A stretch of 43,933 bases of DNA from a virus (lineage: Duplodnaviria; Heunggongvirae; Uroviricota; Caudoviricetes), in the IMG/VR virus record IMGVR_UViG_2711768014_000011; one strand, written 5' to 3'. The number at the start of each line of letters is the position of its first letter. The stretch's first letter is position 1. The translations under genes were made by a program, and so were the position numbers. The notes beneath the pieces were generated by a model. It saw only the letters and a program-made list of their open reading frames with translations. It was not told the origin of the DNA and ran no database searches. Positions 1 to 42,381 of this stretch are shown piece after piece.

Positions 1-3000
1 ATACGCTATACCGTTAAAAATAATGGGCGGAATAATAATCTGGCGGTCAAAGTTATGATCATCGCTGATGGTGACTGTAACCGTACCGTCTGGTGTTTCC
101 GTGTTACCCCACGTACCGACTTTTTTCGGGAAGGCTTTTGATACAGCTTTAACGAAATCCCCTCTGACCTGGGTCGCCTCCAGCATGCCCTTAATCGTAC
201 AGTTCTGGTTAATCGTGACATTGTTGAGCGTTCCTGAGTTCGCATTCACACTACCACTGATATCCGCATTTTTAGCGGTCAGCTTTCCGTCTGATGTCAG
301 GGAAAATACCGGAGGACTGCCACCGCTGGTAATGGCGGGGGCTGTCAGGCGCTTCAGGAACACGTCGTTCATGAATATCTGGTTGCCCTGCGCCACAAAC
401 ATCGGCGTTTCATTCCCGTTTGCCGGGTCAATAAACGCGATACGGTTAGCGGCAACCAGAAACTGGCTCAGTTTGCCTTCCTCCGTGTCCTCCATGCTGA
501 GGCCAATACCCGCGACATAATGTTTGCCGTCTTTGGTCTGCTCAATTTTGACGCCCCACATCGCATTCCATTTATCGTTAGCGTCCTTCCACTCTTTCGA
601 AAACTCATCCAGTCTGCTGGCGTTATCCTCCGTCAGATCAACTTTTTCCAGCAGCTCTTTACCGAGATGGGATTCGGTTATCTTGCCTTTGAAAAAATCC
701 AGGTAACCTTCCGCATCATCGCTCGCCCGACCGACGGCCTCCACGAATGCCGATTTGCCAACGGTGTTCACACTGCGGATATAAAAGTAATAATCATGGC
801 CCGGTTTGATATTGATACTGGCGGCTATCCAGTACAGCCCCGCGCCAAGGTAGCGGGCTGTGGTTTCAACCTGCCTGATATCGGTAATCCGCGTTTCCGA
901 GAACCAGAACTCAAACTGTACCGTCGGATCATAAACCGCAAGATGCGGCGTGGCAGTTATCTGAAAATAGCCCGGCGTCAGCTCAATCCGCGACGGTGCT
1001 ACCGGTGCGGCAATCCTGAACGATACCGACGCCGGATCGCCCTGCTGTCCCCAGGCATTTACCGCCCGGACTGTCAGCGTGTACCGTCCCAGCGCCAGTT
1101 GCGTGAAGCGGTATGTGGTTTCCGTCGTCCGGGCCGTGCTGACCAGCCGCTCACTGCCGTCATCCGCTGCCACGGTCAGGCGAAGCATAAAGCTCACCCC
1201 CTTCACCACCTTCGGCGTGTCCCAGCGCGCCAGCACCTGATATTCCCCGCTGTCTGCGGTGACTTCGGCAGTCAGGTGCTGCACCGCTGGCGGCGTGACA
1301 CCATTCACCGTGCCGCTCTGGTCGCCGTCAAAGTGCGCCCCGTTATCCACGATGGCTTCTTTTTCCGGTACATGCTGCACGGCAGTGATGGCATACGTGC
1401 CGTCATCGTTCTCACGGATACTCACACAGCGGAACAGGCGCTGGCGCAACGTCGGCAGCTTCAGCCCCCACACGCTGTATTCAGCAACGCCGTCAGGAAC
1501 ACGGCTCACTTTCACCTTCACGCCGTCGGTGACGGACTGAACCTCCACGCTGACCGGATTGCCACTTCCGTCAACCAGGCTTATCAGCATGGTACCGGAG
1601 GATGGCAGCGTGATTTCACGGTCGAGCGTCAGCGTCCGGGTCTGGCTGTTTACCGCCAGCACGCGCCCGCCGATGCTGATACCCGCATAGTCATCATCAC
1701 AGATTTCAATGACATCGCCCGGCACATGGCGAAGCCCTTCTGCGCCCACGCTGAAGTCCACGGTCTGCGTTTCCAGCAGTTCTGTTTTAATCAGCCACAG
1801 CCCGGCGCGGTGTGCCTGCCCCCGGCTGGTACAGCCAAAAGCATCCATCTTCGTGACGTTACGACCGTAACGGGCAATGGCCTGCGTATCCTCCACAAGC
1901 TCTGTCGCCGTCTCCCAGCCGTTATCCGGGTCAATCCAGTTCACCTCAACGGCATTATGGCGGTCNNNNNNNNNNNNNNNNNNNNNNNNNNNNNNNNNNN
2001 NNNNNNNNNNNNNNNNNNNNNNNNNNNNNNNNNNNNNNNNNNNNNNNNNNNNNNNNNNNNNNNNNNNNNNNNNNNNNNNNNNNNNNNNNNNNNNNNNNNN
2101 NNNNNNNNNNNNNNNNNNNNNNNNNNNNNNNNNNNNNNNNNNNNNNNNNNNNNNNNNNNNNNNNNNNNNNNNNNNNNNNNNNNNNNNNNNNNNNNNNNNN
2201 NNNNNNNNNNNNNNNNNNNNNNNNNNNNNNNNNNNNNNNNNNNNNNNNNNNNNNNNNNNNNNNACACCAGGCCATGTTGTTGCTGTATGCTGGTTTTAAC
2301 GTTCCGTCCCAGATACCGCTGTATTGTCGCGTCTGCGGGTTATAGTTCGACGGCACCTGCAGAATGCGCCCGCGAAGATGATAATTACGACTCACCTGCT
2401 GGCTGCCGAACTGCTCCGAGTCCACCTGTACGCCGACCAGTGCAGTGTTCGGGTAGCACTGTTTCACATCGATGATTTCGGTGTATGACGACCAGAGCGT
2501 TTTGTTCTGCAGCTGGTCTGTGGTGCTGTCCGGTGTCATCCTGCGCATCCGGATACTGAACGGGCGCGGAGGCAGGTTATCCACCACCACCGAGACCAGA
2601 TACTGCGAGGTGGTTTTGCCCTTAATGGTGATGTCTTTTTCCGTCACCCAGCCACCGTTACGCTGTATCTGAACCAGCAGGCGGACTTCCGACGGATTCC
2701 TGTCTCCCTTTGAGGTGGTTTCCACCAGTGCCTGTACACCGAAGGTAAAGCGCAGACGGTCGATGTTTGCCGACGTGATGGTCCGGGTGATCGGCGTGTC
2801 ATATTTCACTTCCGTACCCAGCACCGTCTCGGAGCCGGAGGATTCAAACCCCTCCGGCGGTGACTGCTCCTGCTCACCTGCCCGGAACACCACCGTGACG
2901 CCGGAGATGTTGGTATTCCCCTCATTGTCCAGCACCGGCGTACTGTTCAGCAGCACGCTTTTTAATCCATCCACCGGACCTTCAACCGGCCCTTCACTGA

Positions 3001-3148: not shown

Positions 3149-3854
3149 TCAGCGACCAATCACCACAACCTGACCACCATCCCCTTCGTCTGCCGTGCTG
3201 ATCTCCTGAGAAACCACACGTGACCCCACGCGCATTTCCCCGTACAGNNNNNNNNNNNNNNNNNNNNNNNNNNNNNNNNNNNNNNNNNNNNNNNNNNNNN
3301 NNNNNNNNNNNNNNNNNNNNNNNNNNNNNNNNNNNNNNNNNNNNNNNNNNNNNNNNNNNNNNNNNNNNNNNNNNNNNNNNNNNNNNNNNNNNNNNNNNNN
3401 NNNNNNNNNNNNNNNNNNNNNNNNNNNNNNNNNNNNNNNNNNNNNNNNNNNNNNNNNNNNNNNNNNNNNNNNNNNNNNNNNNNNNNNNNNNNNNNNNNNN
3501 NNNNNNNNNNNNNNNNNNNNNNNNNNNNNNNNNNNNNNNNNNNNAAAACACACCGCCACTTTTGGCACCCGCCAGACGCGGAACGATGTGGATCACGGCA
3601 CCATTTGCCAGCGGTTCATTAAGACGGGCAGATAATTCATTTTCGCCTGCATCACGCCCGGCAATGCGCACCTGATACCAGCCGTCGCTCAGTTTCTGAC
3701 GAAATGCCGGGAGCTGTGTGGCCAGTGCCCGGATGGCTTCGGCCCCCGTTTTCACACGAAGGTCGATGCGGCGGCCAAATCGCTGCAAATCCCCGTAAAG
3801 GCAGATGCGTGCCATGCCCGGTGACGCCAGAGGGAGTGTGTGCGTCGCTGCCAT
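3149..3854 (-). CDS. I: Tail assembly protein I (lambda gpI-like); N block 3248-3544 inside
   Basis: N-terminus MAATHTLPLASPGMARICLYGDLQRFGRR and C-terminus LYGEMRVGSRVVSQEISTADEGDGGQVVVIGR match recalled lambda I; the frame changes across the N run. Confidence 0.8.
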
Positions 3855-4714
3855 TTGTCGGTATACCTCTCTCGTTTGCTCAGTTGTTCAGGAATATGGT
3901 GCAGCAGCTCGCCGTCACCACAGTAAATGGCGGCATGATTCGGCACCGATGAACCAAAACAGCACAGCAGCACATCGCCCGGCTGCGCCGTTGACAACGG
4001 CACCTGATACAGCCCTGTAGCCTCCAGATTATCCAGATAGAGATTCTGACCATTACGCCACCAGTCGTCCTCACGATGAAAATCTGGCATCTCAATTCCC
4101 GCCAGATGGTAAGCGTCCCGGAACAGCGTGTAACAGTCCGTCACCCCGTGCTCAAAGCGCCGCCCGGTGAGATGCGGCACACAGCGGAACTTGTGAATCG
4201 CCCCGCGGCAGACCAGCCACCACGACAAATCACTCTGCACCTGCAGCCGCCGGTCGGCCTCACTCAGCCAGGGCAGACCACCGGGGTGGCTGTGGACCAG
4301 CGCCACAATCTCACCCTGCATCTCTGCCTNNNNNNNNNNNNNNNNNNNNNNNNNNNNNNNNNNNNNNNNNNNNNNNNNNNNNNNNNNNNNNNNNNNNNNN
4401 NNNNNNNNNNNNNNNNNNNNNNNNNNNNNNNNNNNNNNNNNNNNNNNNNNNNNNNNNNNNNNNNNNNNNNNNNNNNNNNNNNNNNNNNNNNNNNNNNNNN
4501 NNNNNNNNNNNNNNNNNNNNNNNNNNNNNNNNNNNNNNNNNNNNNNNNNNNNNNNNNNNNNNNNNNNNNTCCGGAAATACTCCTCCGGCTCACCGGAAAT
4601 ATTCACGCAGGGAAAATATCTTTCCCCCTCCGGTGTTCTCACCACGAAGCCGCACGACTCCGCTGGCGCACATCGCCGGGCGTGCGCCAGAATCGCTGAT
4701 TCTGTCTGTGTCAT
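3752..4714 (-). CDS. K: Tail assembly protein K (JAB/MPN metalloprotease-like HSHPGG motif plus NlpC/P60-like C-terminus); N block 4328-4569 inside
   Basis: MTQTESAILAHARRCAPAESCGFVV and EIVALVHSHPGGLPWLSEADR motifs; 103-nt overlap with I start as in lambda. Confidence 0.8.
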   Translation of the reverse strand: MTQTESAILAHARRCAPAESCGFVVRTPEGERYFPCVNISGEPEEYFRXXXXXXXXXXXXXXXXXXXXXXXXXXXXXXXXXXXXXXXXXXXXXXXXXXXXXXXXXXXXXXXXXXXXXXXXXXXXXXXXXAEMQGEIVALVHSHPGGLPWLSEADRRLQVQSDLSWWLVCRGAIHKFRCVPHLTGRRFEHGVTDCYTLFRDAYHLAGIEMPDFHREDDWWRNGQNLYLDNLEATGLYQVPLSTAQPGDVLLCCFGSSVPNHAAIYCGDGELLHHIPEQLSKRERYTDKWQRRTHSLWRHRAWHASAFTGICSDLAAASTFV

Positions 4715-17337: not shown

Positions 17338-18648
17338 TTAAATCCGAAGTGATGTGACTCTTCCGGTCGGTTTGACAATAGGGAATTGCTTAACGATGAA
17401 ATAACCTCCGGCATCATTCGGGTGATCATTGCCAGATTTTTTATCAGGCTCCCCCTTCTCATCCCAGACCTGTTGCTCCAGAGATTCGGCATATAACGGG
17501 CAACGCTTCACATTAACTTTATAGCGACGCTCACCATTGGCATTGCAGAACATTGCATTCATTGAGTTAACGCGATCTTTTACTGGCGGGTTCGAGCTGT
17601 TCACCACAACGTTAAAACCAGCCTGCTTAAGCTGGGCTATATCCGTCGTACTTGCGTTACTTGATTTTCTGGAATCCCCGGAAGCATCTGGATAAATATA
17701 AATTTCCCTCACTTTCCGGTAATCATTCCCATCATACAGCCAGAAGCGTTCTTTAATGATGCGGATCATATCCGGCGTATCGTAGGCATTGATGATTTCA
17801 GTTACCGCACATGGAAGCCCCAAACGCAGCACATGGACGATTCCCGCCATCTTTCCAACGTTAAAATCCATCCCAATATAAATCGGCTCCCCTGGCTGCT
17901 CCACTTCTTCGCAATTATTCAGTTTCCGGTCAAACTGATGGTAAACAGTACCACTTGTCAGGTTAGTAAACTGTCCTCGAAGATAGGCTTTAATCAGCTC
18001 TGGAGGGTATGATTCAAGAAGCGAAGGAATGTAATCTGCTGGCAGGTTCTTTTCATTATCGAAAGTAGATGCCTGCACCAGACCATACAGTGAGGCCAGC
18101 TCTGTTTTTTCACGCACGGCTTTAACAAACTGCTCGTAGACAAATTTGAATCCTTCCGGCGTGGTTGTAACGTCAATACCGTTGCGAAGTCCATCAATCT
18201 TATAACGCATACGTGCAATTATCTTGCGCCACGCCGTTCTGGCTTTTTCCTTCGGCAAAATGTCCAGTTCATCCACCAACGCATTACCAATTTTGAAACC
18301 GACGATCGTTTGTGGCTTCTCCATCGATCTGCAGATAGTGGTTCCCCGATACTGGCGTCCGTAATAAAAGTGAACCTCTTTATTTCCCTCATTAATTTTT
18401 ACGTTCAATCCCCAGTCAGCAGCAACTTCTTCCACTGTAGGGTAAAAAATATCGCGAATTTGGGGATACGTTGGCGCAAAATATCCCTGATTTATACCTG
18501 GATGCTCCCAAATCCCCTTGCATATGCCGCCACACCCAACCCATGTTTTGCCCGAGCCAAAACCAGCAATATAGGCTTTAAATTTATGGGGCATTGAAAG
18601 AAATCGCGCCTGAGGCACATTAAGCGTCGGAGAGATCATCTTCATCAC
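17338..18648 (-). CDS. Terminase large subunit
   Basis: 436 aa with Walker A-like AGFGSGKTW near the N-terminus; overlaps the small-subunit stop. Confidence 0.85.
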   Translation of the reverse strand: MMKMISPTLNVPQARFLSMPHKFKAYIAGFGSGKTWVGCGGICKGIWEHPGINQGYFAPTYPQIRDIFYPTVEEVAADWGLNVKINEGNKEVHFYYGRQYRGTTICRSMEKPQTIVGFKIGNALVDELDILPKEKARTAWRKIIARMRYKIDGLRNGIDVTTTPEGFKFVYEQFVKAVREKTELASLYGLVQASTFDNEKNLPADYIPSLLESYPPELIKAYLRGQFTNLTSGTVYHQFDRKLNNCEEVEQPGEPIYIGMDFNVGKMAGIVHVLRLGLPCAVTEIINAYDTPDMIRIIKERFWLYDGNDYRKVREIYIYPDASGDSRKSSNASTTDIAQLKQAGFNVVVNSSNPPVKDRVNSMNAMFCNANGERRYKVNVKRCPLYAESLEQQVWDEKGEPDKKSGNDHPNDAGGYFIVKQFPIVKPTGRVTSLRI

Positions 18649-19714
18649 TCCTTACTCTGGCATCAACCACATTAATATTGATCGCCACAGGCTGGGGATG
18701 TTCATTATCTTCCACCGTTTCGATCTCTTTGCGCAGCTTCTGGTTTTCCATTCTGCGCCGTTCAATTTCCAGTTCCCGTAGCCGCTTATCTGCACATAAA
18801 GCCCCGCCAGCAGAAAACAAACGCAACAATTCACGCCGGGCGGCAGCCTTATCCTCCAGCAGGATCTCAACGCCGAATTTTCCGAATTTTGCCCCTGCAT
18901 ATAATTGCCGCGCATCCCCATCAAGCAGAGTGGTATCAGCCATATAAAGCTGTCCCGTTCCCTCACCGCAGCACTTCGGGCAGTCCGGATTGGGTATGGC
19001 GTTATCAACAAAGCCGAGGCCTCCATATTCCGGTTCGGGTTTGCCATCTCTGGAAGCCTGCGCCGCTGCCTTGTCGAATTCTGCTATATCGCGCCACTGG
19101 TAGAGATGATTCTCGCCCCAGCAATAACGGCAGTTAACACGGCGAAATTGTGCAAGCTGATTGGGGTCGGCCAGGACAATAGCCATCAACTGACTCACTA
19201 GTAAATCCAGGTCTGCGGTATAGCGTTTCTGGTACTGATTGCGGAAGTAGCTGATAGCGCGAAAAACCCTGGCATTTCTAAGCATACGACTGGCGTTGCT
19301 GTTAGCTGTCGCACCTTGCCCCTCATAACCGGCTAGTCGGTACGCCTCTGTCGGCTTTTTACCCTGAGCAACAAGCATCGCAAACTTAGCCTGCTGGTCA
19401 GAAATGCCGAATTCATCGGGACAGAACGAAAATTCCTCCGCGTCGCCCTCATTCAGGCCCGCATCGAATACTGGCTTTTTTTCCTGAGATTTTTCGTTCC
19501 GCTTTTGTGCAGTCTGCGCAGATTTTTTCTGCGCACTTTTTTGCGCAGTTTTGCACATTTCTGTCTGCGCATTTTTCGGAGTTTTTTTGATGTAACGACG
19601 GGCTGTTGCGTAATTCAGTCCCCTTGCTTCACACCATGCCACCGGAGATATACCGGAGCGGGTGTATTCAGCAATATACTCCTGCTGCAACGCCCCCCAG
19701 TCCGGTCTGCTCAT
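18620..19714 (-). CDS. Terminase small subunit (N-terminal HTH, Lys/Gln-rich linker)
   Basis: 364-aa ORF immediately upstream of and overlapping the large terminase; assigned by position. Confidence 0.55.
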   Translation of the reverse strand: MSRPDWGALQQEYIAEYTRSGISPVAWCEARGLNYATARRYIKKTPKNAQTEMCKTAQKSAQKKSAQTAQKRNEKSQEKKPVFDAGLNEGDAEEFSFCPDEFGISDQQAKFAMLVAQGKKPTEAYRLAGYEGQGATANSNASRMLRNARVFRAISYFRNQYQKRYTADLDLLVSQLMAIVLADPNQLAQFRRVNCRYCWGENHLYQWRDIAEFDKAAAQASRDGKPEPEYGGLGFVDNAIPNPDCPKCCGEGTGQLYMADTTLLDGDARQLYAGAKFGKFGVEILLEDKAAARRELLRLFSAGGALCADKRLRELEIERRRMENQKLRKEIETVEDNEHPQPVAININVVDARVRSDEDDLSDA

Positions 19715-19717
19715 CAG

Positions 19718-19969
19718 TTAGTCCTGATTTTTATCCACCCTGAGTAGTTCGCGCAGAGCAAAGGCATCCCCTTTTCTGGCAAGCTTAAACAATGCCGCTC
19801 GTAACTCGGCTTCACCTTTCGCTCTGCCCTTACGGATGGCCGCATAAAAATCTGTCATTGCTTCCCGATTTTCTTTCAGTCGGTTCAGATCAACATCCAG
19901 AACGTCAGCGATTTGTTGTGCAGTCATCCGGCACGCTGCCAGAGACTCGACTTTCGAATACGGAATCAT
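19718..19969 (-). CDS. Small hypothetical protein, possible HTH DNA-binding
   Basis: 83-aa ORF directly upstream of the small terminase; MTAQQIADVLDVDLNRL is helix-turn-helix-like; true start may be the internal Met at 19927. Confidence 0.4.
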   Translation of the reverse strand: MIPYSKVESLAACRMTAQQIADVLDVDLNRLKENREAMTDFYAAIRKGRAKGEAELRAALFKLARKGDAFALRELLRVDKNQD

Positions 19970-20837
19970 TTGTCACCCCCATTGATATGCAGGGTGTCTT
20001 CTTCCTGTATTTTTCGTGAAGGATTTTTACTGCAGCGTTGTTCCAGGTGACCTGATGGTGAATGCGTTTATGACTGGCACCCATAAGTGAGATTTTTACG
20101 CACGACGGCGCATACATGACGGAGTAAAAACTTTTAACGTAGGTTCCGGAATCCAGATACAGCTCGGTCATTCCGCCGCTGTTTTTCTGCGTCTGTTTCT
20201 GCCCTAACTGGACAGCACCGATCGTCATAAACAATTCACCACAGCGACCGAGATTCGTGTACGTATTCACATCCTCGTTAATGCGCCCCATGAATGAGAA
20301 CGGTCGATCAACCGAACAGATAAAGCTGTTCATTGCCTTGCGTTTCACCCACGAAGCATGGCCGCCATTGTCACCAAGAAAATCCCCGCCCTGCGACATA
20401 GCGATGGAAAGAGCAGGTATTGATTCGTAGTACGCAAGCATTTCAGAAAGGATCTCATCCAGTTTCCTTATCGGGAAATAGGCCTGGTCATAGTTGCGAT
20501 CCACCCGAAACTGGAACTCGTGATAATCATCATCGAGCTGAATGAAGTATTTACACCCGACCAGTTTTGCCTGGTCGAAACAGGCATTACGGGCGTAAAA
20601 AATTGAGCGGCGGTCACTAAAATTATCGGCTTCGTCAAAACGACTAGCAATATCGGCTTTGGAAAATACCAGCACCTGTTCACCAAATTCAGCCATGTAC
20701 TGATGCCGTGTCTTATCTTCATCATCAACAACGATAAAAATTTTCCCGGTATAGCCAGCACGACGCAACGTCCGGTAAGTCAGAACTTTGTCCGGTCGCC
20801 CGTGAGTCAGAATAAAGGCGCAAAAATCATCACGCAT
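19905..20837 (-). CDS. Hypothetical protein with GT-A-fold glycosyltransferase-like motifs
   Basis: 310 aa from ATG at 20837 (SD GGAGGAGG 3 nt upstream); 8-nt overlap with the ParB-like gene; motifs IFIVVDDEDK, ARN and YFIQLDDDYHEF resemble GT2-type DxD signatures. Confidence 0.5.
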   Translation of the reverse strand: MRDDFCAFILTHGRPDKVLTYRTLRRAGYTGKIFIVVDDEDKTRHQYMAEFGEQVLVFSKADIASRFDEADNFSDRRSIFYARNACFDQAKLVGCKYFIQLDDDYHEFQFRVDRNYDQAYFPIRKLDEILSEMLAYYESIPALSIAMSQGGDFLGDNGGHASWVKRKAMNSFICSVDRPFSFMGRINEDVNTYTNLGRCGELFMTIGAVQLGQKQTQKNSGGMTELYLDSGTYVKSFYSVMYAPSCVKISLMGASHKRIHHQVTWNNAAVKILHEKYRKKTPCISMGVTNDSVFESRVSGSVPDDCTTNR

Positions 20838-21618
20838 ATTCCTCCTCCCCGCCATGCATGATCTCCACCATGCGCTGCGTCATTCGGACAAATCCATTTT
20901 CAATAGCCTGCTGATAATCAATGATCACCAGCGCCGACTCCTCGAAAAGGCACTGAATTTCAGCGGGGGCATGAGCGTAATAGTCCGCAATTCTGCTGAA
21001 ATTAAACACCGTGTGACGTTCTGCTGCACACAGGAGGAATTTCTCAATATCAGGATCAAGGGACGCCGAACGTATCCGGCTGATCAGCTCCTGAGTTTTC
21101 GTATCGTCGTACAGTTCACTGATATCCGGTTTACCGCCTGACGGCTCATAAACAGGCGTATCAATTTTCGTCGTATACGGCTCCTCCTCATTTCCTGTAC
21201 CGGGCAAAACATCCGTCAACAGTTCATCAATTTCTGCCGGGATGAAGCCTGTCAGGGAGACATCAAAATCAGCATTGATTAGGTCCGACAGCTCCATCCG
21301 CAACAGATCTTCATCCCAGCCAGCATTCATCGGCAGGCGATTATCTGCCAGGCGGTACGCCTTTTTCTGCTCATCCGTCAGGCCAGACAGAACAATGACC
21401 GGAACAGAATCCATTTTGAGCATTTCAGCCGCCATAACACGACCGTGACCCGCAATAATTTCGCCCTTTTCGTCAATCAGCACCGGATTAGTCCAGCCGA
21501 ATTGCTTAATACTTTCTACCAGTTGTGCCACCTGCTCAGTACTGTGCGTCCTGGCGTTGTGCGCATACGGTGACAATTCTTGTAATGGGCGATAGACTAT
21601 CTTTAATTTCTCGCTCAT
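20830..21618 (-). CDS. ParB/Srx-like nuclease-domain protein
   Basis: 262 aa; N-terminal ParB-type domain with the GHGR motif (IIAGHGRVMAAEM) and LADNRL; acidic C-terminal half. Confidence 0.75.
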   Translation of the reverse strand: MSEKLKIVYRPLQELSPYAHNARTHSTEQVAQLVESIKQFGWTNPVLIDEKGEIIAGHGRVMAAEMLKMDSVPVIVLSGLTDEQKKAYRLADNRLPMNAGWDEDLLRMELSDLINADFDVSLTGFIPAEIDELLTDVLPGTGNEEEPYTTKIDTPVYEPSGGKPDISELYDDTKTQELISRIRSASLDPDIEKFLLCAAERHTVFNFSRIADYYAHAPAEIQCLFEESALVIIDYQQAIENGFVRMTQRMVEIMHGGEEEYA

Positions 21619-21639: not shown

Positions 21640-21672
21640 AACGCACCCCAGCAGCCAGTGCTACTGGGGGCG
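21640..21672 (-). terminator. Terminator-like hairpin downstream of trkG
   Basis: Minus-strand RNA CCCCAGUAG-cacugg-CUGCUGGGG (one mismatch) followed by UGCGUUUUAUU. Confidence 0.3.
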
Positions 21673-21755: not shown

Positions 21756-23213
21756 TTAGGAGCGCCAAAAAAAACCTGAAAACAATATAATAACAGGATA
21801 AATTTCAAGGCGACCAAGAATCATAGCTATGCACATTAAATATTTTGCAATGTCATTAAGCACTCCGAATGACGATGCAGTAGCCCCAAAACCTAATCCC
21901 ATATTATTAATACATGCAGCCACTGTTGCAAATGATGTAAGAAAATCATATCCCATACCATTTAACACCAGTATAAAAAACACCGTGAAGAGAGTATAAA
22001 GAAAAAAGAAACTCCATACAGACCTCATTACACGATCTGTAACTATCTTCCCTCCTACATTTACACTCAACAACGCTCTGGGATGAGAAAGCTGATTTAT
22101 CTCGTGTTTGCTTTGTTTGAAAAGTATAAGAAATCGAAGTGACTTAATTCCACCACAGGTTGAACCTATACATCCCCCAAAGAAACTTGACAACAGCAAA
22201 AACACTATCGTGTGCGTGGGCCAGTTTGCATAATCCTGCGTAGCTAAACCATTATCAGTGAGCATGGAGCTGGCAAGAAAAAACGAATGAATAAAACTTC
22301 CATGCAAGTCATACATACCTATATGCCAGACCTGGAAAGAGGTAACAATGATCACCCCTAAGGCTATTAACAGAAAGAAACGAAGTTCAATATCTCTGAT
22401 TAAAGGTTTTATCGTTTTTCTGCTAATAACAATATACCAAAGAGTGAAGTTGAAAGCCGATAGCAGGGAAAAAGAACCAGCCACCAGCTCAACCAAATAG
22501 TTATTAAAATATCCGATACTCTCGCTATGAGTTGAGAAACCACCAAGCGAAACTGTGGAAATCCCGTGACAAATAGCATCAAACAAAGGCATTCCTGCAA
22601 GTCTATAACAGACAATACAAGCAATACCTAATAAAGAATAAGTTATCCACAGTGTCCGTGACGTATCGGCCAGGCGGGGAGTGAGTTTGTCATCCTTAAA
22701 TGGCCCCGGCATTTCTGACTGATAAAGCTTTGCACCACCAATACCCAATAATGGCAATACTGCAACCGCCAGAACAATAACTCCTAAACCACCTATAAAA
22801 TTTAACTGTGACCGATAGTACAAATATGCCCGAGGTAATGAACTAACATCATCAATTACAGTTGCTCCTGTTGTTGTTATTCCAGAAACCCCTTCAAACA
22901 GAGCATCAATGAACGTTAAATTAAGTTCTGAGTCAATCCATAAAGGGAATGCACTAATAACAGAAAACAAAATCCAAAACATTACAATTATAATAAACCC
23001 ATCACGGGTACGTAATTGAATGCCAGATTTCTTAGTTGTATACCACGCTCCGCCACCAATGCAAAAAAATATAACGAAAGTTATAAAGAAAACGAACAGG
23101 CTTTTTTCTTTATAAAACAATGCTACAACCATTGGTGGCAACATTGAAAGACTATAGAGCCAAACCAGGAACCCACACATATGAGTAACAACTCTTACAT
23201 GAGATGTATTCAT
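21756..23213 (-). CDS. trkG: Potassium uptake protein TrkG (TrkH family); AT-rich cargo gene
   Basis: 485 aa from MNTSHVRVVTHMCGFLVWLYSLSMLPPMVV; matches recalled K-12 TrkG; strongly AT-rich against the phage backbone. Confidence 0.9.
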   Translation of the reverse strand: MNTSHVRVVTHMCGFLVWLYSLSMLPPMVVALFYKEKSLFVFFITFVIFFCIGGGAWYTTKKSGIQLRTRDGFIIIVMFWILFSVISAFPLWIDSELNLTFIDALFEGVSGITTTGATVIDDVSSLPRAYLYYRSQLNFIGGLGVIVLAVAVLPLLGIGGAKLYQSEMPGPFKDDKLTPRLADTSRTLWITYSLLGIACIVCYRLAGMPLFDAICHGISTVSLGGFSTHSESIGYFNNYLVELVAGSFSLLSAFNFTLWYIVISRKTIKPLIRDIELRFFLLIALGVIIVTSFQVWHIGMYDLHGSFIHSFFLASSMLTDNGLATQDYANWPTHTIVFLLLSSFFGGCIGSTCGGIKSLRFLILFKQSKHEINQLSHPRALLSVNVGGKIVTDRVMRSVWSFFFLYTLFTVFFILVLNGMGYDFLTSFATVAACINNMGLGFGATASSFGVLNDIAKYLMCIAMILGRLEIYPVIILFSGFFWRS

Positions 23214-23350
23214 ATCTAAATATTCTTTCAATTATAACCACCTTGCTGCAATATTATGATTATACTGTATAAAATTTAACTCCTCTTAGATCTTACTTCA
23301 CTGTTCCTTATGAAACAATCATCAAAATGAATCATATTGTAGTTAAGATT

Positions 23351-23815: not shown

Positions 23816-24315
23816 TGCTGACCCCACAAACAGATTTCACGCTCAATCTCACGACGAGTCATGAGACCTTTCCATTGCTTACCGCCAGCATATGTCCAGC
23901 GACGTAGCTGATCACATGCGCCTTTGATATCGCCCTGGTTTATTTTNNNNNNNNNNNNNNNNNNNNNNNNNNNNNNNNNNNNNNNNNNNNNNNNNNNNNN
24001 NNNNNNNNNNNNNNNNNNNNNNNNNNNNNNNNNNNNNNNNNNNNNNNNNNNNNNNNNNNNNNNNNNNNNNNNNNNNNNNNNNNNNNNNNNNNNNNNNNNN
24101 NNNNNNNNNNNNNNNNNNNNNNNNNNNNNNNNNNNNNNNNNNNNNNNNNNNNNNNNNNNNNNNNNNNNNNNNNNNNNNNNNNNNNNNNNNNNNNNNNNNN
24201 NNNNNNNNNNNNCCAGACCATCGTTACCACTTGGGCCAGTGATTAACACTGATGCTATAGCAATTGCTCCGCCACCAATAGCAGCAGCAACGACTTTTCG
24301 TAATGATGGAGGCAT
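23812..24315 (-). CDS. SAR endolysin (T4-lysozyme-type, RrrD-like); N block 23947-24212 inside
   Basis: N-terminal signal-anchor-release segment [34 protein letters not shown] and C-terminus [37 protein letters not shown]; start overlaps the holin stop (ATGA). Confidence 0.85.
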
Positions 24316-25756: not shown

Positions 25757-26344
25757 TTTTCCTCACATATGTCATATAGTAAAGGATTATATATACCGTT
25801 GTTTTGGACGCTCAAACAGCGAATCAGATCAAATAAAACGCACATTTGTTAACATTTACACAAAGTCTGCGTGGGATATTCTGAAAGAATATCCATAATG
25901 TGGAGAGAATCTATTGAAGTGCATGGTGCCGGGTGCCTCCCGGTGAACAAAATGTTCGTGATACCTGTCGGCGACAGAAAAGGTTAATGGTATCACCCCA
26001 CCGCACAGGGGGATTCACCATGCAGGAGTTTTCTTAGCAAACTCACTGCGCGCCCGGCAACTCCCAACCACATAAAATGCGGAGTTTGTGGCATTTATGC
26101 ATATAACTCGCAGGAATTATCTTAAAAAACTGATGTCGATCCGGATTAAAAAGAAGCAGGTCATCATCAGATGACTGGAAAAAAGGAAAACAAAAAATAC
26201 TCATCATACAGTTTTGATTGCAGGGATGAGCCTGCTATGCACAATATGCAGAATATAAGCAAGATAAAAATATGCAGGCATATTATTTCGGATCTTGTTA
26301 TTAACACAACCTTTTTAATAATCATTTGGCATACAATAAACCAG

Positions 26345-30001: not shown

Positions 30002-31003
30002 TTAGTAATCTGCGTGTTTCGCACTTTTCAGAAATGCTTTCATATTTTCATTAGGTCGCTCAATTTCGAAGTTACTTCCATATAACTCTTGTAATTTTGG
30101 CCATAACTTACTTAATAACCCTCTCCTGCGATAAAATGGATGTATCCAAACGGTAGATAGGTACGGAGAATTTGCATTTGAATTGTTTATTGTGACCAGC
30201 CCAACTAAACATTGTCGATAACCACTATTATCCATTGATTGTATTTCTTCGACGAATGGATACGCGATTACATCAGTCCAACCATGATCGGTTGTATCCC
30301 ATTGCATTCCGTCATGACATTCCTTCGACTGATAGCGGCGTAAAGCTACACACGCGAGCTTTTGCCAATCTGGAGAATTAATTGTGATCTCTTCATCGTA
30401 TGACGCGCCTATTGGAGCGGGTATTGGTCTGATTAATCCAGCATGGCATTCATCATAGAACTTCATGTTTCCCTCAGAAACGTTGTGTACGTTGGGTTGC
30501 TCCATGTGTGCGCCATTCAAAAATAGCTCTGATAGTAGTGTATCTACACTGTAATCTTTATTGATTATTGTCGGCTTAGAGTTTTTCTTATTAAGGCCGC
30601 GAGTAACGATTTTTTGATCAATGTTAACAACATGGAATAATCCGTCGGGGAGGCTAGCGAACCACGATGGGGCATCGGACCAGAATAGCATGCCTTTTGT
30701 ACTTCTTAAGAGTTTAATTAAGTTAATACAAGCTTCTTCACTAGTCTTGCCGTTGATGCGAAGTATGTTAGGACTAAAGTAATATTCATCCATATCAGGG
30801 AATGCAGCTTCGCAAAACTCCTGTACATAATTTAGCACCTGGATTCTACAGAGATCATCATAGCTGGTAATAACTAAGGGGGTATCTTCATTACTATTAT
30901 GATTATCAATAATGCAATCTATAGCGAGACTTACTGCTTTGCGTATCACTTCAGTTGAATCTAACGACTCTAAAAATTTTGTCTTTCGTGTGCGAATATC
31001 CAT
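30002..31003 (-). CDS. Cargo cassette protein B: unknown function, C-terminal GNAT-acetyltransferase-like motif
   Basis: 333 aa; AT-rich; start 15 nt after protein A's stop; C-terminal LVGLVTI...YLSTVWIHPFYRRRGLLSKLW resembles GNAT motif A (V-x-P-x-Y-R-x-x-G). Confidence 0.75.
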   Translation of the reverse strand: MDIRTRKTKFLESLDSTEVIRKAVSLAIDCIIDNHNSNEDTPLVITSYDDLCRIQVLNYVQEFCEAAFPDMDEYYFSPNILRINGKTSEEACINLIKLLRSTKGMLFWSDAPSWFASLPDGLFHVVNIDQKIVTRGLNKKNSKPTIINKDYSVDTLLSELFLNGAHMEQPNVHNVSEGNMKFYDECHAGLIRPIPAPIGASYDEEITINSPDWQKLACVALRRYQSKECHDGMQWDTTDHGWTDVIAYPFVEEIQSMDNSGYRQCLVGLVTINNSNANSPYLSTVWIHPFYRRRGLLSKLWPKLQELYGSNFEIERPNENMKAFLKSAKHADY

Positions 31004-31018
31004 GTATGACCTGCGCTA

Positions 31019-32041
31019 TTAAAATTCATGAATGAACGGTTTGTCATCTGGTTGCAAAATGGTGGTTTTATTCGTTGCTACATTTAAACTGTTGTAGAGC
31101 ATAATTGCCAGGTTCGATGCATTTTCAATCAGCGTTTCAAGATCCTGGTCTGTAATCACTACGAGGTTCCCTTCTTTATCCTTTCCACCACGATGCACTA
31201 AGTGATTTCGATTGAGGGTTGCCAATTCAATAGCTTCTATCGGACAGTCTTTTTGTACTTTTATATCGAATGTAGCTTCATAGCGGTCGATTACCTTTTT
31301 AGTGCTATGCCAGCTTGCACTGATCAAGTGTTCCTTGATTGACCTGATTAGCTCTCCCCTAATTTTCTCGATGGGTTCACCCTTGAAAGGCAACGCAGCA
31401 ATATCTTTGCTTACTTTAAATTCAGTCTTACCTTTTTCTATACAATTGGCTATGTAGACATCATCTTTCTCTATAGAATTAATGAATAGCTCAACATAAA
31501 GCGTTTCCAAAGCTGTAATAACATTCGTGTAGAGCAAACTAAGCAAGTGGTTTTTTTGCTGTTGTTCAGTTTTATCTTTTGCAAGTTTTTTTATTTTATC
31601 GATATTATCAATGAATTTTAAATACGGATTACCGGAAGACGTTACAGCGTCGTAGATATCATCATCGTACCAATCATCTATATTATTTGAGTTTCCAGAC
31701 CAGTCAAAACATTGTGTTTGTAATTCATCTACTAATTCCTCAATATACTCAGATTTAACATATTGACCGAAGATGGATTGTAGTTCTTCGCTCGCATCAT
31801 ACGGCCCGCCATATATGTAAGCATAGCCACCTTCTCTACTTTCATACGGACAAGCATTTGCCGGATCTTCAAAGTTTTCAAAGAACCAGTTTTTCATTAC
31901 TTCGAGTTGATCTTTTTTGCTTATGTATTTTAAAGATTTTAGTGGAACTTTCTTTCCATTAACCTCGAAAACAATTTTCACGATGTAACGCTCCCTTGTA
32001 TCAATTGCGCAACTATTATACCACAGCGAAATACAGGGCAT
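31019..32041 (-). CDS. Cargo cassette protein A: unknown function, C-terminal HEPN-like Rx4H motif
   Basis: 340 aa from ATG 32041 (SD AAGGAGG 6 nt upstream); alternative GTG start at 31981 behind an extended -10; AT-rich; C-terminal ELATLNRNHLVHRGG contains R-N-x3-H. Confidence 0.75.
   Translation of the reverse strand: MPCISLWYNSCAIDTRERYIVKIVFEVNGKKVPLKSLKYISKKDQLEVMKNWFFENFEDPANACPYESREGGYAYIYGGPYDASEELQSIFGQYVKSEYIEELVDELQTQCFDWSGNSNNIDDWYDDDIYDAVTSSGNPYLKFIDNIDKIKKLAKDKTEQQQKNHLLSLLYTNVITALETLYVELFINSIEKDDVYIANCIEKGKTEFKVSKDIAALPFKGEPIEKIRGELIRSIKEHLISASWHSTKKVIDRYEATFDIKVQKDCPIEAIELATLNRNHLVHRGGKDKEGNLVVITDQDLETLIENASNLAIMLYNSLNVATNKTTILQPDDKPFIHEF
32015..32023 (-). promoter_or_regulatory. 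Candidate extended -10 (TGGTATAAT) inside the 5' end of the cassette A ORF
   Basis: Minus-strand TGGTATAAT lies 34 nt upstream of GTG 31981, which has SD AAGGGAG; a TTGACA hexamer also occurs at 32137-32142 in the upstream gap but without a matching -10. Confidence 0.3.
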
Positions 32042-32179
32042 AACCTGCCTCCTTAAACTAACATACCATGAGCCAGCAATGTCCGCTATTGGCACAAAGC
32101 GGACAACCACGCTAGCTCTCCCCTGTGCCAGAAAAATGTCAATTTACATATGAACTAATGCTCTTTGATCTAGTAACGT

Positions 32180-33395: not shown

Positions 33396-34138
33396 TTACT
33401 TCTCAATTCCTGGCTGGACGACATTCGGACGCCAGCTCTCCCAGTTAAAATTCACCCATCGCCCGNNNNNNNNNNNNNNNNNNNNNNNNNNNNNNNNNNN
33501 NNNNNNNNNNNNNNNNNNNNNNNNNNNNNNNNNNNNNNNNNNNNNNNNNNNNNNNNNNNNNNNNNNNNNNNNNNNNNNNNNNNNNNNNNNNNNNNNNNNN
33601 NNNNNNNNNNNNNNNNNNNNNNNNNNNNNNNNNNNNNNNNNNNNNNNNNNNNNNNNNNNNNNNNNNNNNNNNNNNNNNNNNNNNNNNNNNNNNNNNNNNN
33701 NNNNNNNNNNNNNNNNNNNNNNNNNNNNNNNNNNNNNNNNNNNNNNNNNNNNNNNNNNNNNNNNNNNNNNNNNNNGATAGCTGCCGCTAAGTGGTTCTTC
33801 CCGGTACCAGGTTTTCCGCTGAACGCAAAATTTGTACACCCGGTCATCAGTTCATCAGCGATGGATTTCGCCTGACTCAACGCGTATCGCTGCGCTTCGT
33901 TCTGCACCTGGTAATTCGAAAACGAGCATTTGCGGTGCAATGGCTGGATGCCAGAGCGATTCAGAATTTTTTCCACCCGCAACTGACGATTCTGACGGTT
34001 GATCTCCTCACAACGTTTCTGGCCTTCGGAAAGTTGCCACTCGCGCCACTCCGCTACCGTCTTGAATGGCGCGGTTACATGTGACGGGGCCAGTCTGCGG
34101 ATACGTTCAAGAACGTCGCCTGTCGCAATATTTTTCAT
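33396..34138 (-). CDS. ydaV: DnaC-like replication ATPase YdaV (helicase loader); N block 33466-33775 inside, 3' end frame uncertain
   Basis: N-terminal 121 aa visible with Walker [17 protein letters not shown]; size with the masked block is about 246 aa, close to K-12 YdaV. Confidence 0.7.
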
Positions 34139-42192: not shown

Positions 42193-42381
42193 ATGTATAA
42201 AATTACCGCCACTATTGAAAAGGAAGGTGGCACTCCTACTAACTGGACAAGATATTCAAAATCTAAACTAACGAAATCAGAATGCGAAAAAATGCTCTCA
42301 GGTAAAAAAGAAGCAGGCGTTTCCAGAGAGCAGAAAGTAAAACTGATAAATTTTAATTGCGAGAAACTTCAGTCCTCGTGA
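42193..42381 (+). CDS. rcbA: RcbA (YdaC)
   Basis: MYKITATIEKEGGTPTNWTRYSKSKLTKSECEKMLSGKKEAGVSREQKVKLINFNCEKLQSS; SD GGAGGTG 3 nt upstream; between ralR and xis as in K-12; longer upstream starts are possible. Confidence 0.65.
   Translation: MYKITATIEKEGGTPTNWTRYSKSKLTKSECEKMLSGKKEAGVSREQKVKLINFNCEKLQSS

What the first reader, a model, noticed from the sequence alone, without database searches (positions are those of the whole stretch)
19905..21618. Translationally coupled ParB-like nuclease-domain protein and GT-A-like protein upstream of terminase
The ParB/Srx-like ORF (20830-21618, GHGR motif) overlaps by 8 nt the start of a 310-aa ORF whose motifs (IFIVVDDEDK, ARN, YFIQLDDDYHEF) resemble the DxD signatures of GT-A-fold glycosyltransferases. 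The pair sits between the trkG cargo and the packaging genes. K-12 Rac seems to retain only a fragment of this region. A nucleotide-sugar transferase next to a DNA-binding ParB-type protein at the packaging locus could be a DNA or virion modification function, but that is speculative.
Basis: inference. Interest (0 to 1): 0.5.

Follow-up and report, generated by a model that had tools for sequence, protein, structure and literature searches.

The report
Phage sugar-transferase with ParB-like partner
Two overlapping late genes of this Rac-like E. coli prophage form a widespread phage cassette, a DNA-type sugar transferase and its dedicated ParB-like partner, that sits just before the DNA-packaging genes and probably puts sugars on phage DNA, although the phage has no enzyme to make the usual attachment point.

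Summary
On the minus strand, a 262-aa ParB/Srx-fold protein (20830-21618) overlaps by 8 nt a 310-aa ORF (19905-20837). They lie between trkG and the terminase genes.

The 310-aa protein belongs to Pfam PF20691 TAGT (TET-associated glycosyltransferase, E 3.7e-34). It has a GT-A fold and an intact R...DDD...ED motif, and RefSeq already calls it 'GREB1-related protein'.

New here:
- The pair is a strictly linked cassette. The partner precedes the glycosyltransferase in 77 of 80 species-level loci from Bacteria and Archaea, and the two genes overlap in 67 of the 74 loci where the junction could be measured. In the reverse test, a TAGT gene lies within 2.5 kb downstream in 79 of 80 loci.
- The cassette usually sits upstream of terminases of at least four unrelated families.
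- The obligate partner element is an undescribed acidic C-terminal domain, not the ParB domain. About 8 loci carry this domain alone.
- No TET/JBP dioxygenase, C5-methyltransferase or hydroxymethylase is present in the window, and none recurs near relatives.

Best reading: a late-expressed, partner-activated, post-replicative DNA glycosylation module whose acceptor is unknown. This is inferred, not shown. It is a new variant of a known kind and is testable in E. coli.

The parts
19905..20837 (-). TAGT-family GT-A glycosyltransferase gene (310 aa; RefSeq WP_001614535.1 'GREB1-related protein')
   Evidence: Pfam PF20691 TAGT E 3.7e-34, 118.9 bits against a cut-off of 27.5, residues 8-222 covering profile positions 4-205 of 205. 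PHROG 842 E 7.5e-104. PGAP name. AF2 model with Foldseek top hits all GT-A: SpsA 2e-5, WrtF, SunS/ThuS, glycogenin. Invariant residues R14, D38, D41, D68, E69, D71, N72, R83, N84, D102-D104, Y105, N187, D189, H260, H261 and W265 in 39 homologues.
20526..20534 (-). Codons for D102-D103-D104, the DxD/'DDD' metal and nucleotide-sugar site
   Evidence: Read from the sequence. Invariant in alignment A1. Matches the R...DDD...ED[Y/F] motif reported for phage GT-A DNA glycosyltransferases and JGT (bioRxiv 10.1101/2023.12.21.572611).
20830..21618 (-). Partner protein gene (262 aa, ynaK-type): ParB/Srx N-domain, linker motif and C-terminal domain
   Evidence: Pfam ParB_N 29.3 bits against a cut-off of 26.3. 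PHROG 620 E 1.7e-90. Full-length conservation from E. coli to Lactobacillus phages and halovirus HHTV-2. Net charge about -24, pI 4.5.
21214..21618 (-). N-terminal ParB/Srx CTPase-fold domain (res 1-135) with box II as A-G-H-G-R
   Evidence: phmmer alignment to Spo0J 1vz0, 4umk and 6sdk, with AGHGR aligned to AGERR. Foldseek hits: Noc 8e-7, ParB-CDP, MxParB-CTPgammaS, PadC, KorB. Its closest profile relatives are the N-termini of DNA methyltransferases: PHROG 498 E 6e-51 and PADLOC MTase_II E 1.5e-38.
21142..21177 (-). Codons for the linear motif Y148-T-T-K-I-D-T-P-V-Y-E-P159, in a segment predicted disordered
   Evidence: Y148, P155 and Y157 are invariant; T149, K151, I152, E158 and P159 are at least 90% conserved. 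pLDDT is below 50 for residues 137-160. The motif is present at the N-terminus of the short, C-domain-only partners.
20854..21186 (-). C-terminal domain (res ~145-255), the obligate partner element of this glycosyltransferase subfamily
   Evidence: A C-domain HMM finds it directly upstream of the glycosyltransferase, also in 132-153-aa proteins that lack ParB_N. There is no Pfam family and no PDB sequence relative. 1187 clusters at 50% identity carry it; in the 150 listed it is nearly always C-terminal.
20830..20848 (-). Translational-coupling junction: GGAGGAGG (20841-20848), ATG (20835-20837) and TGA (20830-20832)
   Evidence: Read from the sequence. Overlaps of 8 nt (24 loci), 11 nt (34), 4 nt (4) and 14 nt (3) give 67 of 74 species-level loci with overlapping stop and start.
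21646..21669 (-). Terminator-like hairpin after trkG, 28 nt before the partner gene's start
   Evidence: Consensus scan: 10-bp stem with 7 GC pairs, followed by a T-rich tail. This is a pattern match only.
19718..19969 (-). Small ORF (83 aa; PGAP aa from 19927) between the glycosyltransferase and TerS; overlaps the 3' end of the glycosyltransferase gene
   Evidence: PHROG 309 'terminase small subunit', E 8e-23, matched to part of the profile. An 85-aa counterpart sits in the same position in Pantoea loci.
17338..19714 (-). Terminase small (18620-19714) and large (17338-18648) subunit genes directly downstream
   Evidence: Pfam Terminase_2, and Terminase_6N plus Terminase_6C. PHROG 51, 10250 and 2.

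Best explanation
The two genes are one functional cassette of the phage late operon.

Shown:
- The downstream gene encodes a soluble GT-A glycosyltransferase of the TAGT family. Characterised members of this family add sugars to hydroxymethyl-pyrimidines, or to sugars already on DNA.
- The upstream, translationally coupled gene encodes a very acidic partner with no recognisable DNA-binding domain. It has a ParB/Srx nucleotide-binding N-domain of the subtype that phages fuse to DNA methyltransferases, an invariant linear motif (YTxKIxxPxYEP), and an undescribed helical C-domain.
- That C-domain is found with this glycosyltransferase subfamily essentially always, sometimes without the ParB domain.

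Inferred:
- The C-domain and motif bind and activate the glycosyltransferase.
- The ParB domain, an NTP-gated module, helps the enzyme act on double-stranded phage DNA. This would parallel ParB176, which is needed for the phage T-dioxygenase 5mYOX176 on dsDNA.
- The enzyme uses a common host nucleotide sugar.
- Replicated phage DNA is glycosylated shortly before or during packaging, which would protect it from restriction in the next host.

Unknown: the acceptor group. Neither this prophage nor its relatives encode a TET/JBP dioxygenase or a hydroxymethylase.
For: Family and fold of the glycosyltransferase.

Known activities of TAGT members: the T6-type second glucosyltransferase (PMC13390438); 5hmC glycosylation by phage GT-A enzymes and their similarity to JGT.

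Fold of the partner's N-domain and its kinship with methyltransferase-fused ParB domains.

Precedent that a ParB-like protein lacking a DNA-binding domain activates a phage DNA-modifying enzyme on dsDNA: PMC13229309.

Strict linkage:
- 77 of 80 species-level loci have the partner ending at the glycosyltransferase start. The other 3 are contig edges or a second glycosyltransferase in between.
- 67 of 74 measured junctions overlap.
- In the reverse test, 71 of 80 viral contigs chosen by the C-domain have TAGT directly next, and 8 more have it within 2.5 kb.

Position before terminases: at least 37 of 63 loci by seed search, plus L006 and L012, where terminases were already seen, plus 5 of 10 sampled remainders. 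The terminases belong to Terminase_6N, Terminase_3, TerL_ATPase and GpA types.

The same arrangement occurs in cultured phages: Lactobacillus c5 and phi jlb1, and halovirus HHTV-2.

Accessory genes inserted into the cassette in some relatives are nucleotidyl-transferases, CofD-like transferases and radical SAM enzymes, as expected for donor or glycan tailoring.
Against: - No hydroxymethyl-pyrimidine source is present. No TET/JBP, C5-methyltransferase or ThyS-like gene is in the window. No third gene family occurs in more than 17 of 84 related loci. None appears in nine Pfam-labelled or annotated contexts. Canonical DNA bases have no hydroxyl group.
- The partner is strongly acidic (pI 4.5, net charge -24) and has no HTH domain.
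- Box II is GHGR rather than GERR.
- A family member, GREB1, glycosylates a protein (PMC7968844).
- The C-terminal halves of both AF2 models have low confidence.
- No modified base has been reported for any phage carrying the cassette, in the papers I could search.
Confidence: 0.5

Rival explanations
1. The cassette is a protein glycosylation system. The enzyme O-glycosylates a Ser, Thr or Tyr residue. The acceptor could be its own partner, for example within the invariant YTxKIxxPxYEP motif, or another phage or host protein, as GREB1 does with ER-alpha and glycogenin does with its own tyrosine.
For: GREB1, a TAGT-family member, O-GlcNAcylates a protein (PMC7968844). The only universally co-occurring protein is the partner, which carries invariant Tyr and Thr residues in a segment predicted disordered. 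Glycogenin and the peptide S-glycosyltransferases SunS and ThuS are among the structural matches. No DNA acceptor-generating enzyme is present.
Against: The partner's N-domain is the subtype fused to DNA methyltransferases. All characterised phage TAGT members act on DNA. Inserted tailoring genes resemble DNA hypermodification clusters. The structural matches are generic GT-A hits with low TM-scores.
Confidence: 0.2
2. The enzyme works only on hydroxymethyl-pyrimidine DNA made elsewhere, for example by a dioxygenase supplied in trans or on superinfecting hmC or hmU phage DNA. In this prophage it would then be idle or serve inter-phage conflict.
For: The family's known acceptors are 5hmC, 5hmU or glucosyl-hmC. 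Pyle et al. raise anti-phage hypermodification by prophage glycosyltransferases. Vibrio 191-kb phages carry the glycosyltransferase with a C-domain-only partner in a replication module.
Against: The genes lie in the late operon behind a terminator-like hairpin, so they are not expected to be expressed in lysogens (inference). The cassette is under strong purifying conservation in small temperate and virulent phages of Gram-negative and Gram-positive bacteria and of archaea, none with a dioxygenase nearby.
Confidence: 0.12
3. The acceptor is a small molecule such as a nucleotide, nucleoside or signalling molecule. The ParB-fold domain would bind that NTP, for example to neutralise a host defence signal or to make a modified precursor.
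For: ParB-fold domains bind various NTPs (PMC12704722). A nucleoside-binding GT-A (AvpGT with Ara-A, 9jn3) is among the structural matches and has the highest query TM-score, 0.40. Cytidylyl- and NTP-transferases are inserted in some cassettes.
Against: No precedent exists in the TAGT family. The persistent position next to the packaging genes and the kinship of the N-domain with DNA methyltransferase fusions point to DNA. The glycosyltransferase has no PADLOC match, although that library covers defence proteins rather than anti-defence ones.
Confidence: 0.08
4. The two genes are unrelated neighbours: a ParB-type protein working in packaging or partition, and a glycosyltransferase that alters a cell-surface glycan (seroconversion).
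For: Prophages often carry surface-modifying glycosyltransferases, and ParB-like genes are common next to terminases (general knowledge; GenBank phage records annotate the protein as 'chromosome (plasmid) partitioning protein').
Against: Overlapping stop and start codons occur in 67 of 74 loci, and linkage is near-absolute in both directions across phyla with different cell envelopes. No ParA, parS-like repeat or HTH was found. The glycosyltransferase is soluble and belongs to the DNA-glycosyltransferase family.
Confidence: 0.03

Closest known systems
TAGT family (Pfam PF20691): TET/JBP-associated glycosyltransferases of phages, including the T2/T6-type second glucosyltransferase, and related to kinetoplastid JGT and animal GREB1
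   Same: Full-length match to the family profile, GT-A fold and a conserved R...DDD...ED motif. It is phage-encoded and lies next to a ParB-like gene, an association already noted for these systems.
   Different: No TET/JBP dioxygenase, C5-methyltransferase or hydroxymethylase is present in the phage or near relatives. The third motif reads E-D-V rather than E-D-Y/F. A conserved C-terminal extension (res 223-288) lies beyond the Pfam model. The enzyme is strictly coupled to a dedicated partner domain.
ParB-dependent phage thymine dioxygenases (5mYOX176/ParB176; O'Toole et al., PNAS 2026, PMC13229309)
   Same: A phage DNA-modification-type enzyme is encoded next to a ParB-like protein that has the nucleotide-binding domain and a C-terminal domain but no obvious DNA-binding domain. 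Both systems lie near terminase genes.
   Different: The enzyme here is a glycosyltransferase, not a dioxygenase. Dependence on the partner is untested here. I could not compare the C-domains because no ParB176 sequence was available. Natural partners consisting of the C-domain alone exist here.
ParB_N-DNA methyltransferase fusions of phages (PHROG 498; PADLOC MTase_II; noted in PMC12704722)
   Same: The N-domain (res 3-144) matches the N-terminal domains of these fusions at E 6e-51 and 1.5e-38. These fusions are also enriched in prophages.
   Different: The catalytic module is a separate polypeptide, the glycosyltransferase. It is reached through an adaptor C-domain instead of a covalent fusion.
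Chromosomal and plasmid ParB/Spo0J/Noc/KorB CTP-dependent clamps
   Same: The N-domain has the same fold, and the phosphate-binding Arg (R60) and Asn (N93) are conserved.
   Different: There is no HTH DNA-binding domain, no ParA and no parS-like site. Box II is GHGR instead of GERR. The protein is strongly acidic.

Membership tests
TAGT (PF20691) glycosyltransferases | Sequence match to the family profile above the curated threshold | tested here: met
   118.9 bits against a cut-off of 27.5, E 3.7e-34, profile positions 4-205 of 205. PHROG 842 E 7.5e-104.
TAGT (PF20691) glycosyltransferases | GT-A (Rossmann-like) fold | tested here: met
   The N-terminal ~150 residues of the AF2 model have pLDDT mostly above 90. 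All top Foldseek PDB hits are GT-A enzymes, E 2e-5 to 1e-3. The C-terminal half is poorly modelled.
TAGT (PF20691) glycosyltransferases | Active-site motifs R...DDD...ED[Y/F] (Pyle et al. 2023) | tested here: met
   R14, D102-D103-D104 and D189 are invariant, and E188 is at least 90% conserved in 39 homologues. The last position is an invariant V190 instead of Y/F.
TAGT (PF20691) glycosyltransferases | Genomic association with a TET/JBP (5mYOX) dioxygenase or another source of hydroxymethyl-pyrimidine | tested here: not met
   None in the window. No recurrent third gene in 84 related loci. None in the Pfam-labelled or annotated contexts examined. No TET/JBP profile could be run over all loci.
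TAGT (PF20691) glycosyltransferases | Sugar transfer to hydroxymethyl-pyrimidine (or glycosyl-hmC) in DNA | not testable with these tools
   Needs an enzyme assay or nucleoside mass spectrometry.
ParB/Srx CTPase-fold proteins | ParB_N domain by sequence and by fold | tested here: met
   PF02195 29.3 bits against a cut-off of 26.3. Foldseek hits to Noc, ParB-CDP, ParB-CTPgammaS, PadC and KorB, E 8e-7 to 1e-4.
ParB/Srx CTPase-fold proteins | Nucleotide-binding residues (box II arginine, box III asparagine) and catalytic Glu of GERR | tested here: inconclusive
   R60 and N93 are invariant, and N21 takes the place of the Gln. The GERR Glu is His58 and the middle Arg is Gly59. Binding or hydrolysis cannot be judged from sequence; PMC12704722 reports that sequence does not predict NTP specificity.
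ParABS partition systems | HTH DNA-binding domain, parS site and ParA partner | tested here: not met
   No HTH in Pfam or in the model. No convincing palindrome in or near the genes. No ParA in the prophage annotation.
ParB-activated phage DNA-modification enzymes (as 5mYOX176/ParB176) | Adjacent ParB-like protein with nucleotide-binding domain plus C-terminal domain and no DNA-binding domain | tested here: met
   Architecture. Adjacency and overlap.
ParB-activated phage DNA-modification enzymes (as 5mYOX176/ParB176) | The enzyme's activity on dsDNA depends on the cognate ParB | not testable with these tools
   Needs co-expression or in vitro reconstitution.

The most novel reading that the evidence does not exclude
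The cassette attaches a sugar to DNA without a hydroxymethyl handle, directly on a canonical base or another non-classical acceptor. It would do so through a new adaptor domain that switches on the glycosyltransferase and can work with or without a ParB NTP-binding module. This would be a new kind of DNA modification. At least 16% of complete E. coli genomes carry at least 80% of the 2-kb region, 30% carry some of it, and roughly a thousand partner-domain clusters exist in phages of Bacteria and Archaea.
Probability: 0.25. Interest if true: 0.85.

Novelty: new variant of a known kind. Interest (0 to 1): 0.6.

Why it matters
Post-replicative sugar modification of phage DNA is known only downstream of enzymes that first create a hydroxymethyl group. 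About 65% of phage glycosyltransferase contigs mined by Pyle et al. lack such an enzyme and were left unexplained.

This locus gives a native E. coli example of that 'orphan' class. It has a defined minimal unit (partner C-domain plus glycosyltransferase) and a clear prediction that activity depends on the partner.

If the target is DNA:
- it would reveal either a new acceptor chemistry or a hidden source of modified bases;
- it would extend the new idea that ParB-fold proteins license DNA-modifying enzymes from dioxygenases to glycosyltransferases;
- it would bear on restriction evasion, phage therapy host range and sequencing artefacts.

If the target is a protein, it would be the first bacterial or phage parallel to GREB1.

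Tried and rejected
- Partition system: rejected. There is no ParA, no HTH and no parS-like inverted repeat.
- Known defence system: PADLOC finds nothing for the glycosyltransferase, and matches only a methyltransferase N-terminus for the partner.
- Hidden dioxygenase or methyltransferase in the window: the unannotated ORFs at 30002-31003 and 31019-32110 give only sub-threshold GNAT and HEPN_RES_NTD1 hits. All other ORFs are ordinary Rac-type genes.
- Identity of the C-domain: profile search of PDB sequences and Pfam scans of 29 members gave only noise. The hits were designed armadillo repeats at E 0.003 and PF23887 in 7 of 29 members at E >= 0.003.
- Structure of the C-terminal halves: both AF2 models have low confidence there, so no fold claim is made.
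- First IMG/VR scan: it returned almost only near-identical E. coli prophages and was useless for diversity. It was replaced by the species-level genome scan and a scan seeded with a divergent C-domain.
- Iyer et al. 2013, which defined TAGT, is not held in the library. No supplementary sequences were available for ParB176 or 5mYOX. I could therefore not build a TET/JBP profile or compare C-domains.
- Vibrio 191-kb phages: they encode a thymidylate synthase next to DHFR, which looks like ordinary dTMP synthesis and gives no information on the acceptor.
- A literature search for ynaK found nothing useful.
Full report
**1. The observation**

The window is a Rac-like lambdoid prophage of E. coli. 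It is 99.8% identical to a prophage of strain EC2, NZ_CP058571.

On the minus strand, a 262-aa ORF (20830-21618) is followed by an ORF ending at 19905.
- The second ORF starts at the ATG at 20837, giving 310 aa beginning MRDDFCAF. PGAP and all homologues use this start.
- ATGCGTGA contains both the start of the second gene and the stop of the first, so the overlap is 8 nt.
- A GGAGGAGG run lies 3 nt upstream of the ATG.

Upstream lies trkG (21756-23231), followed by a terminator-like hairpin (21646-21669). Downstream are a small TerS-like ORF, TerS and TerL. K-12 Rac retains only the 87-aa ynaK fragment of the first gene and has lost the second gene and the packaging genes.

**2. The two proteins**

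*The 310-aa protein*
- It matches Pfam PF20691, TAGT (TET-associated glycosyltransferase), at E 3.7e-34 over the whole profile.
- It matches PHROG 842 at E 7.5e-104. Newer RefSeq annotations call it 'GREB1-related protein'.
- An AF2 model is confident for the N-terminal ~150 residues. All its best PDB matches are GT-A glycosyltransferases: SpsA, WrtF, SunS/ThuS and glycogenin.
- In 39 homologues, R14, D102-D103-D104 and D189 are invariant and E188 is at least 90% conserved. This corresponds to the R...DDD...ED[Y/F] active-site signature described for phage GT-A DNA glycosyltransferases and the trypanosome base-J glucosyltransferase.
- Characterised TAGT members add a second glucose to glucosyl-hmC in T6-type phages (PMC13390438) or glycosylate 5hmC made by phage TET enzymes (PMC8256090; bioRxiv 10.1101/2023.12.21.572611). 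The animal relative GREB1 O-GlcNAcylates a protein (PMC7968844).

*The 262-aa protein*
- Its N-terminal ~135 residues form a ParB/Srx domain: Pfam ParB_N just above threshold, and an alignment to Spo0J in which AGHGR aligns to AGERR. Foldseek hits include Noc, ParB-CDP, ParB-CTPgammaS, PadC and KorB.
- The closest profile relatives of this N-domain are the N-termini of phage DNA methyltransferases: PHROG 498 at E 6e-51 and PADLOC MTase_II at E 1.5e-38.
- It has no HTH domain, and the prophage has no ParA and no parS-like repeat.
- The protein is strongly acidic (pI 4.5, net charge about -24), whereas the glycosyltransferases are mildly basic (median pI 8.4 for the 39 aligned homologues and 8.7 for 79 diverse ones).
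- After a variable acidic linker comes an invariant linear motif, YTxKIxxPxYEP (residues 148-159, predicted disordered), and then a helical C-terminal domain. Both are conserved from E. coli to Lactobacillus phages and the haloarchaeal virus HHTV-2.
- This C-domain has no Pfam family and no relative among PDB sequences.
- Searched alone against 1.84 billion representative proteins, it finds 1187 clusters. In the 150 listed it is nearly always at the C-terminus, in proteins of 93-433 aa.

**3. The pair is a cassette**

*Forward test.* A scan of one genome per species returned 80 loci with a glycosyltransferase 43-99% identical to this one. They come from Proteobacteria, Bacteroidota, Firmicutes, Negativicutes, Planctomycetota, candidate phyla and Archaea.
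- In 77 of them, an ORF matching the partner profile ends at the glycosyltransferase start. The three exceptions are contig edges or a second glycosyltransferase in between.
- Stop and start overlap in 67 of the 74 loci where the junction could be measured, mostly by 8 or 11 nt.

*Reverse test.* Of 80 viral contigs chosen by a divergent C-domain, 71 have TAGT directly downstream and 8 more have it within 2.5 kb.
- In 7 of those 8, the gap holds one of three insertions: a radical SAM enzyme, a histidine-phosphatase/cytidylyltransferase fusion, or a CofD-like transferase with a MobA-like NTP transferase.
- In the eighth, the glycosyltransferase has an extra N-terminal domain.
- All of these look like donor- or glycan-tailoring functions.

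*C-domain-only partners.* In about 8 loci the partner is only 132-153 aa long: the motif plus the C-domain, without the ParB domain. These include Vibrio 191-kb phages and a Methanosphaera contig. The C-domain, not the ParB fold, is therefore the obligate partner.

*Position.* No third gene family occurs in more than 17 of 84 loci. The recurrent neighbours are terminases of at least four unrelated Pfam families just downstream.
- A seed search found a TerL in 37 of 63 loci with room, a lower bound.
- L006 and L012, where terminases had already been seen, add two more.
- So do 5 of 10 sampled remainders.

Cultured phages with the same arrangement include Lactobacillus c5 (ORF1/ORF2 right after cos), phi jlb1 and HHTV-2.

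In E. coli, 1604 of 5426 complete genomes match part of the region and 867 carry at least 80% of it.

**4. What is missing**

TAGT enzymes are named for their TET/JBP partner, which creates the hydroxymethyl acceptor.
- The window has no TET/JBP, no C5-methyltransferase and no thymidylate-synthase-like hydroxymethylase.
- None recurs in the related loci.
- None appears in the nine Pfam-labelled or annotated contexts I inspected.
- A subset of Bacteroidales phages has a C5-methyltransferase ~4 kb upstream (10 loci), again without a visible dioxygenase.

One limitation applies: I could not run a TET/JBP profile over all loci. Pyle et al. reported that ~65% of phage glycosyltransferase contigs lack a 5mYOX or ThyS neighbour and left them unexplained. 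This cassette is a well-defined part of that class.

**5. Most likely mechanism**

*Shown*
- The enzyme is a catalytically intact TAGT-family GT-A protein.
- It is translationally coupled to a dedicated partner.
- Late-operon position just before packaging is the usual arrangement.

*Inferred*
- The partner's motif and C-domain bind and activate the glycosyltransferase.
- The ParB NTP-binding module helps it work on dsDNA. This is analogous to the 2026 finding that ParB176, which also lacks a DNA-binding domain, is required for the phage T-dioxygenase 5mYOX176 on dsDNA (PMC13229309). It also fits the earlier proposal that ParB proteins direct modification enzymes during packaging (cited in PMC8256090).
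- The donor is a common host nucleotide sugar, because most cassettes carry no donor-synthesis gene.
- The product protects packaged DNA from restriction.

The acceptor is the open point. Because the cassette is self-contained in very different hosts, the acceptor must be universal. It could be canonical DNA (new chemistry), the partner protein itself, or a common metabolite. I put about 0.5 on DNA as the target.

*Rivals*

| Rival | Confidence |
|---|---|
| Protein glycosylation, including the partner's own Tyr/Thr motif | 0.2 |
| Activity only on hydroxymethylated DNA from elsewhere | 0.12 |
| A small-molecule acceptor | 0.08 |
| Unrelated neighbours | 0.03 (contradicted by the linkage data) |

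**6. Comparison with what is known, and novelty**

- Membership in the TAGT family is met by sequence, fold and motifs. The name-giving TET association is tested and not met.
- The partner is a ParB/Srx-fold protein but not a partition ParB.
- The system works like the ParB-dependent 5mYOX systems and like ParB_N-methyltransferase fusions, but with a glycosyltransferase and a separate adaptor domain.
- The ParB-CTPase fold survey of 2025 does not mention glycosyltransferases (PMC12704722). I found no paper describing this cassette or the C-domain in the searchable library.
- The founding TAGT paper (Iyer et al. 2013) could not be read, so part of the ParB-TAGT association may already be described there.

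I rate it a new variant of a known kind. The gene family and the ParB link are known and already annotated. Three things appear new: the dioxygenase-free two-gene unit, its near-absolute linkage, and the undescribed C-domain as the core partner. All three are directly testable in E. coli.

Noticed in passing
window 19513-19589 (inside the 5' part of terS, minus-strand gene 18620-19714): There are four to five copies of TCTGCGCA-like direct repeats spaced 12-24 nt apart, partly forming hairpins. They encode the repetitive 'KTAQKSAQKKSAQTAQK' stretch of TerS. They could be a pac-type recognition site or simply a repeat in the protein.
   Followed up: no
L205, L227, L230, L243, L245, L253, L258, L208 (IMG/VR contigs): In some relatives, extra genes sit between the partner and the glycosyltransferase. 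They are a radical SAM enzyme (L205, L227), a histidine-phosphatase plus cytidylyltransferase fusion (scanned in L230; the L243 ORF is alike by its N-terminal sequence), and a CofD-like transferase plus a MobA-like NTP transferase (scanned in L245 and L253; L258 is alike). In L208 the glycosyltransferase has an extra ~185-aa N-terminal domain that starts with a P-loop-like GxxxxGKT sequence (no Pfam match for that part). This suggests more elaborate modifications built on the same core.
   Followed up: partly
L014 7459-7878; L105, L119, L153, L157, L170, L172, L175: Here the partner proteins are only 132-153 aa long: the YTxKIxxPxYEP motif plus the C-domain, without the ParB domain. They include Vibrio 191-kb phages and a Methanosphaera contig. 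L153 has two tandem [C-domain + glycosyltransferase] units. L002, L147 and L161 have two tandem glycosyltransferases after one partner.
   Followed up: partly
L001 21662-21919 (= window 21361-21618): RefSeq annotates the intact 262-aa partner ORF of strain EC2 as a truncated ynaK pseudogene covering only the first 86 codons, although the sequence is identical to the window's full ORF. This is probably an artefact of using the K-12 fragment as reference. GenBank phage records call the protein 'chromosome (plasmid) partitioning protein'.
   Followed up: partly
window 19905-19969: The E. coli glycosyltransferase has a ~22-aa C-terminal extension absent from most homologues (which are 283-295 aa). 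The extension overlaps the start of the next small ORF by 23-65 nt, depending on the start chosen.
   Followed up: no
window 30002-31003 and 31019-32110 (minus strand): Two adjacent ORFs of 333 and 363 aa have only sub-threshold Pfam hits (GNAT acetyltransferase, HEPN/RES N-terminal domain). They lie in the early/nin region and may be a moron or a defence pair. The first is frameshifted in strain EC2.
   Followed up: partly
window 42199-42377 and 25867-26053 (minus strand): Rfam finds the RalA antitoxin sRNA of the Rac RalR/RalA system (225 bits) and the sRNA STnc100 (87 bits).
   Followed up: no
window 1966-2263, 3248-3544, 4330-4569, 23947-24212, 33466-33775: There are five masked runs of N. 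One interrupts the lysozyme gene. Compared with strain EC2, the window lacks the IS1 insertion in the tape-measure gene.
   Followed up: partly
L145 2992-4746, L141 6519-9047 and similar Bacteroidales loci: A subset of related phages carries a C5-cytosine methyltransferase (10 loci) and an SNF2-helicase/N6_N4-methyltransferase fusion (7 loci) a few kb upstream of the cassette. No dioxygenase cluster was seen there.
   Followed up: partly
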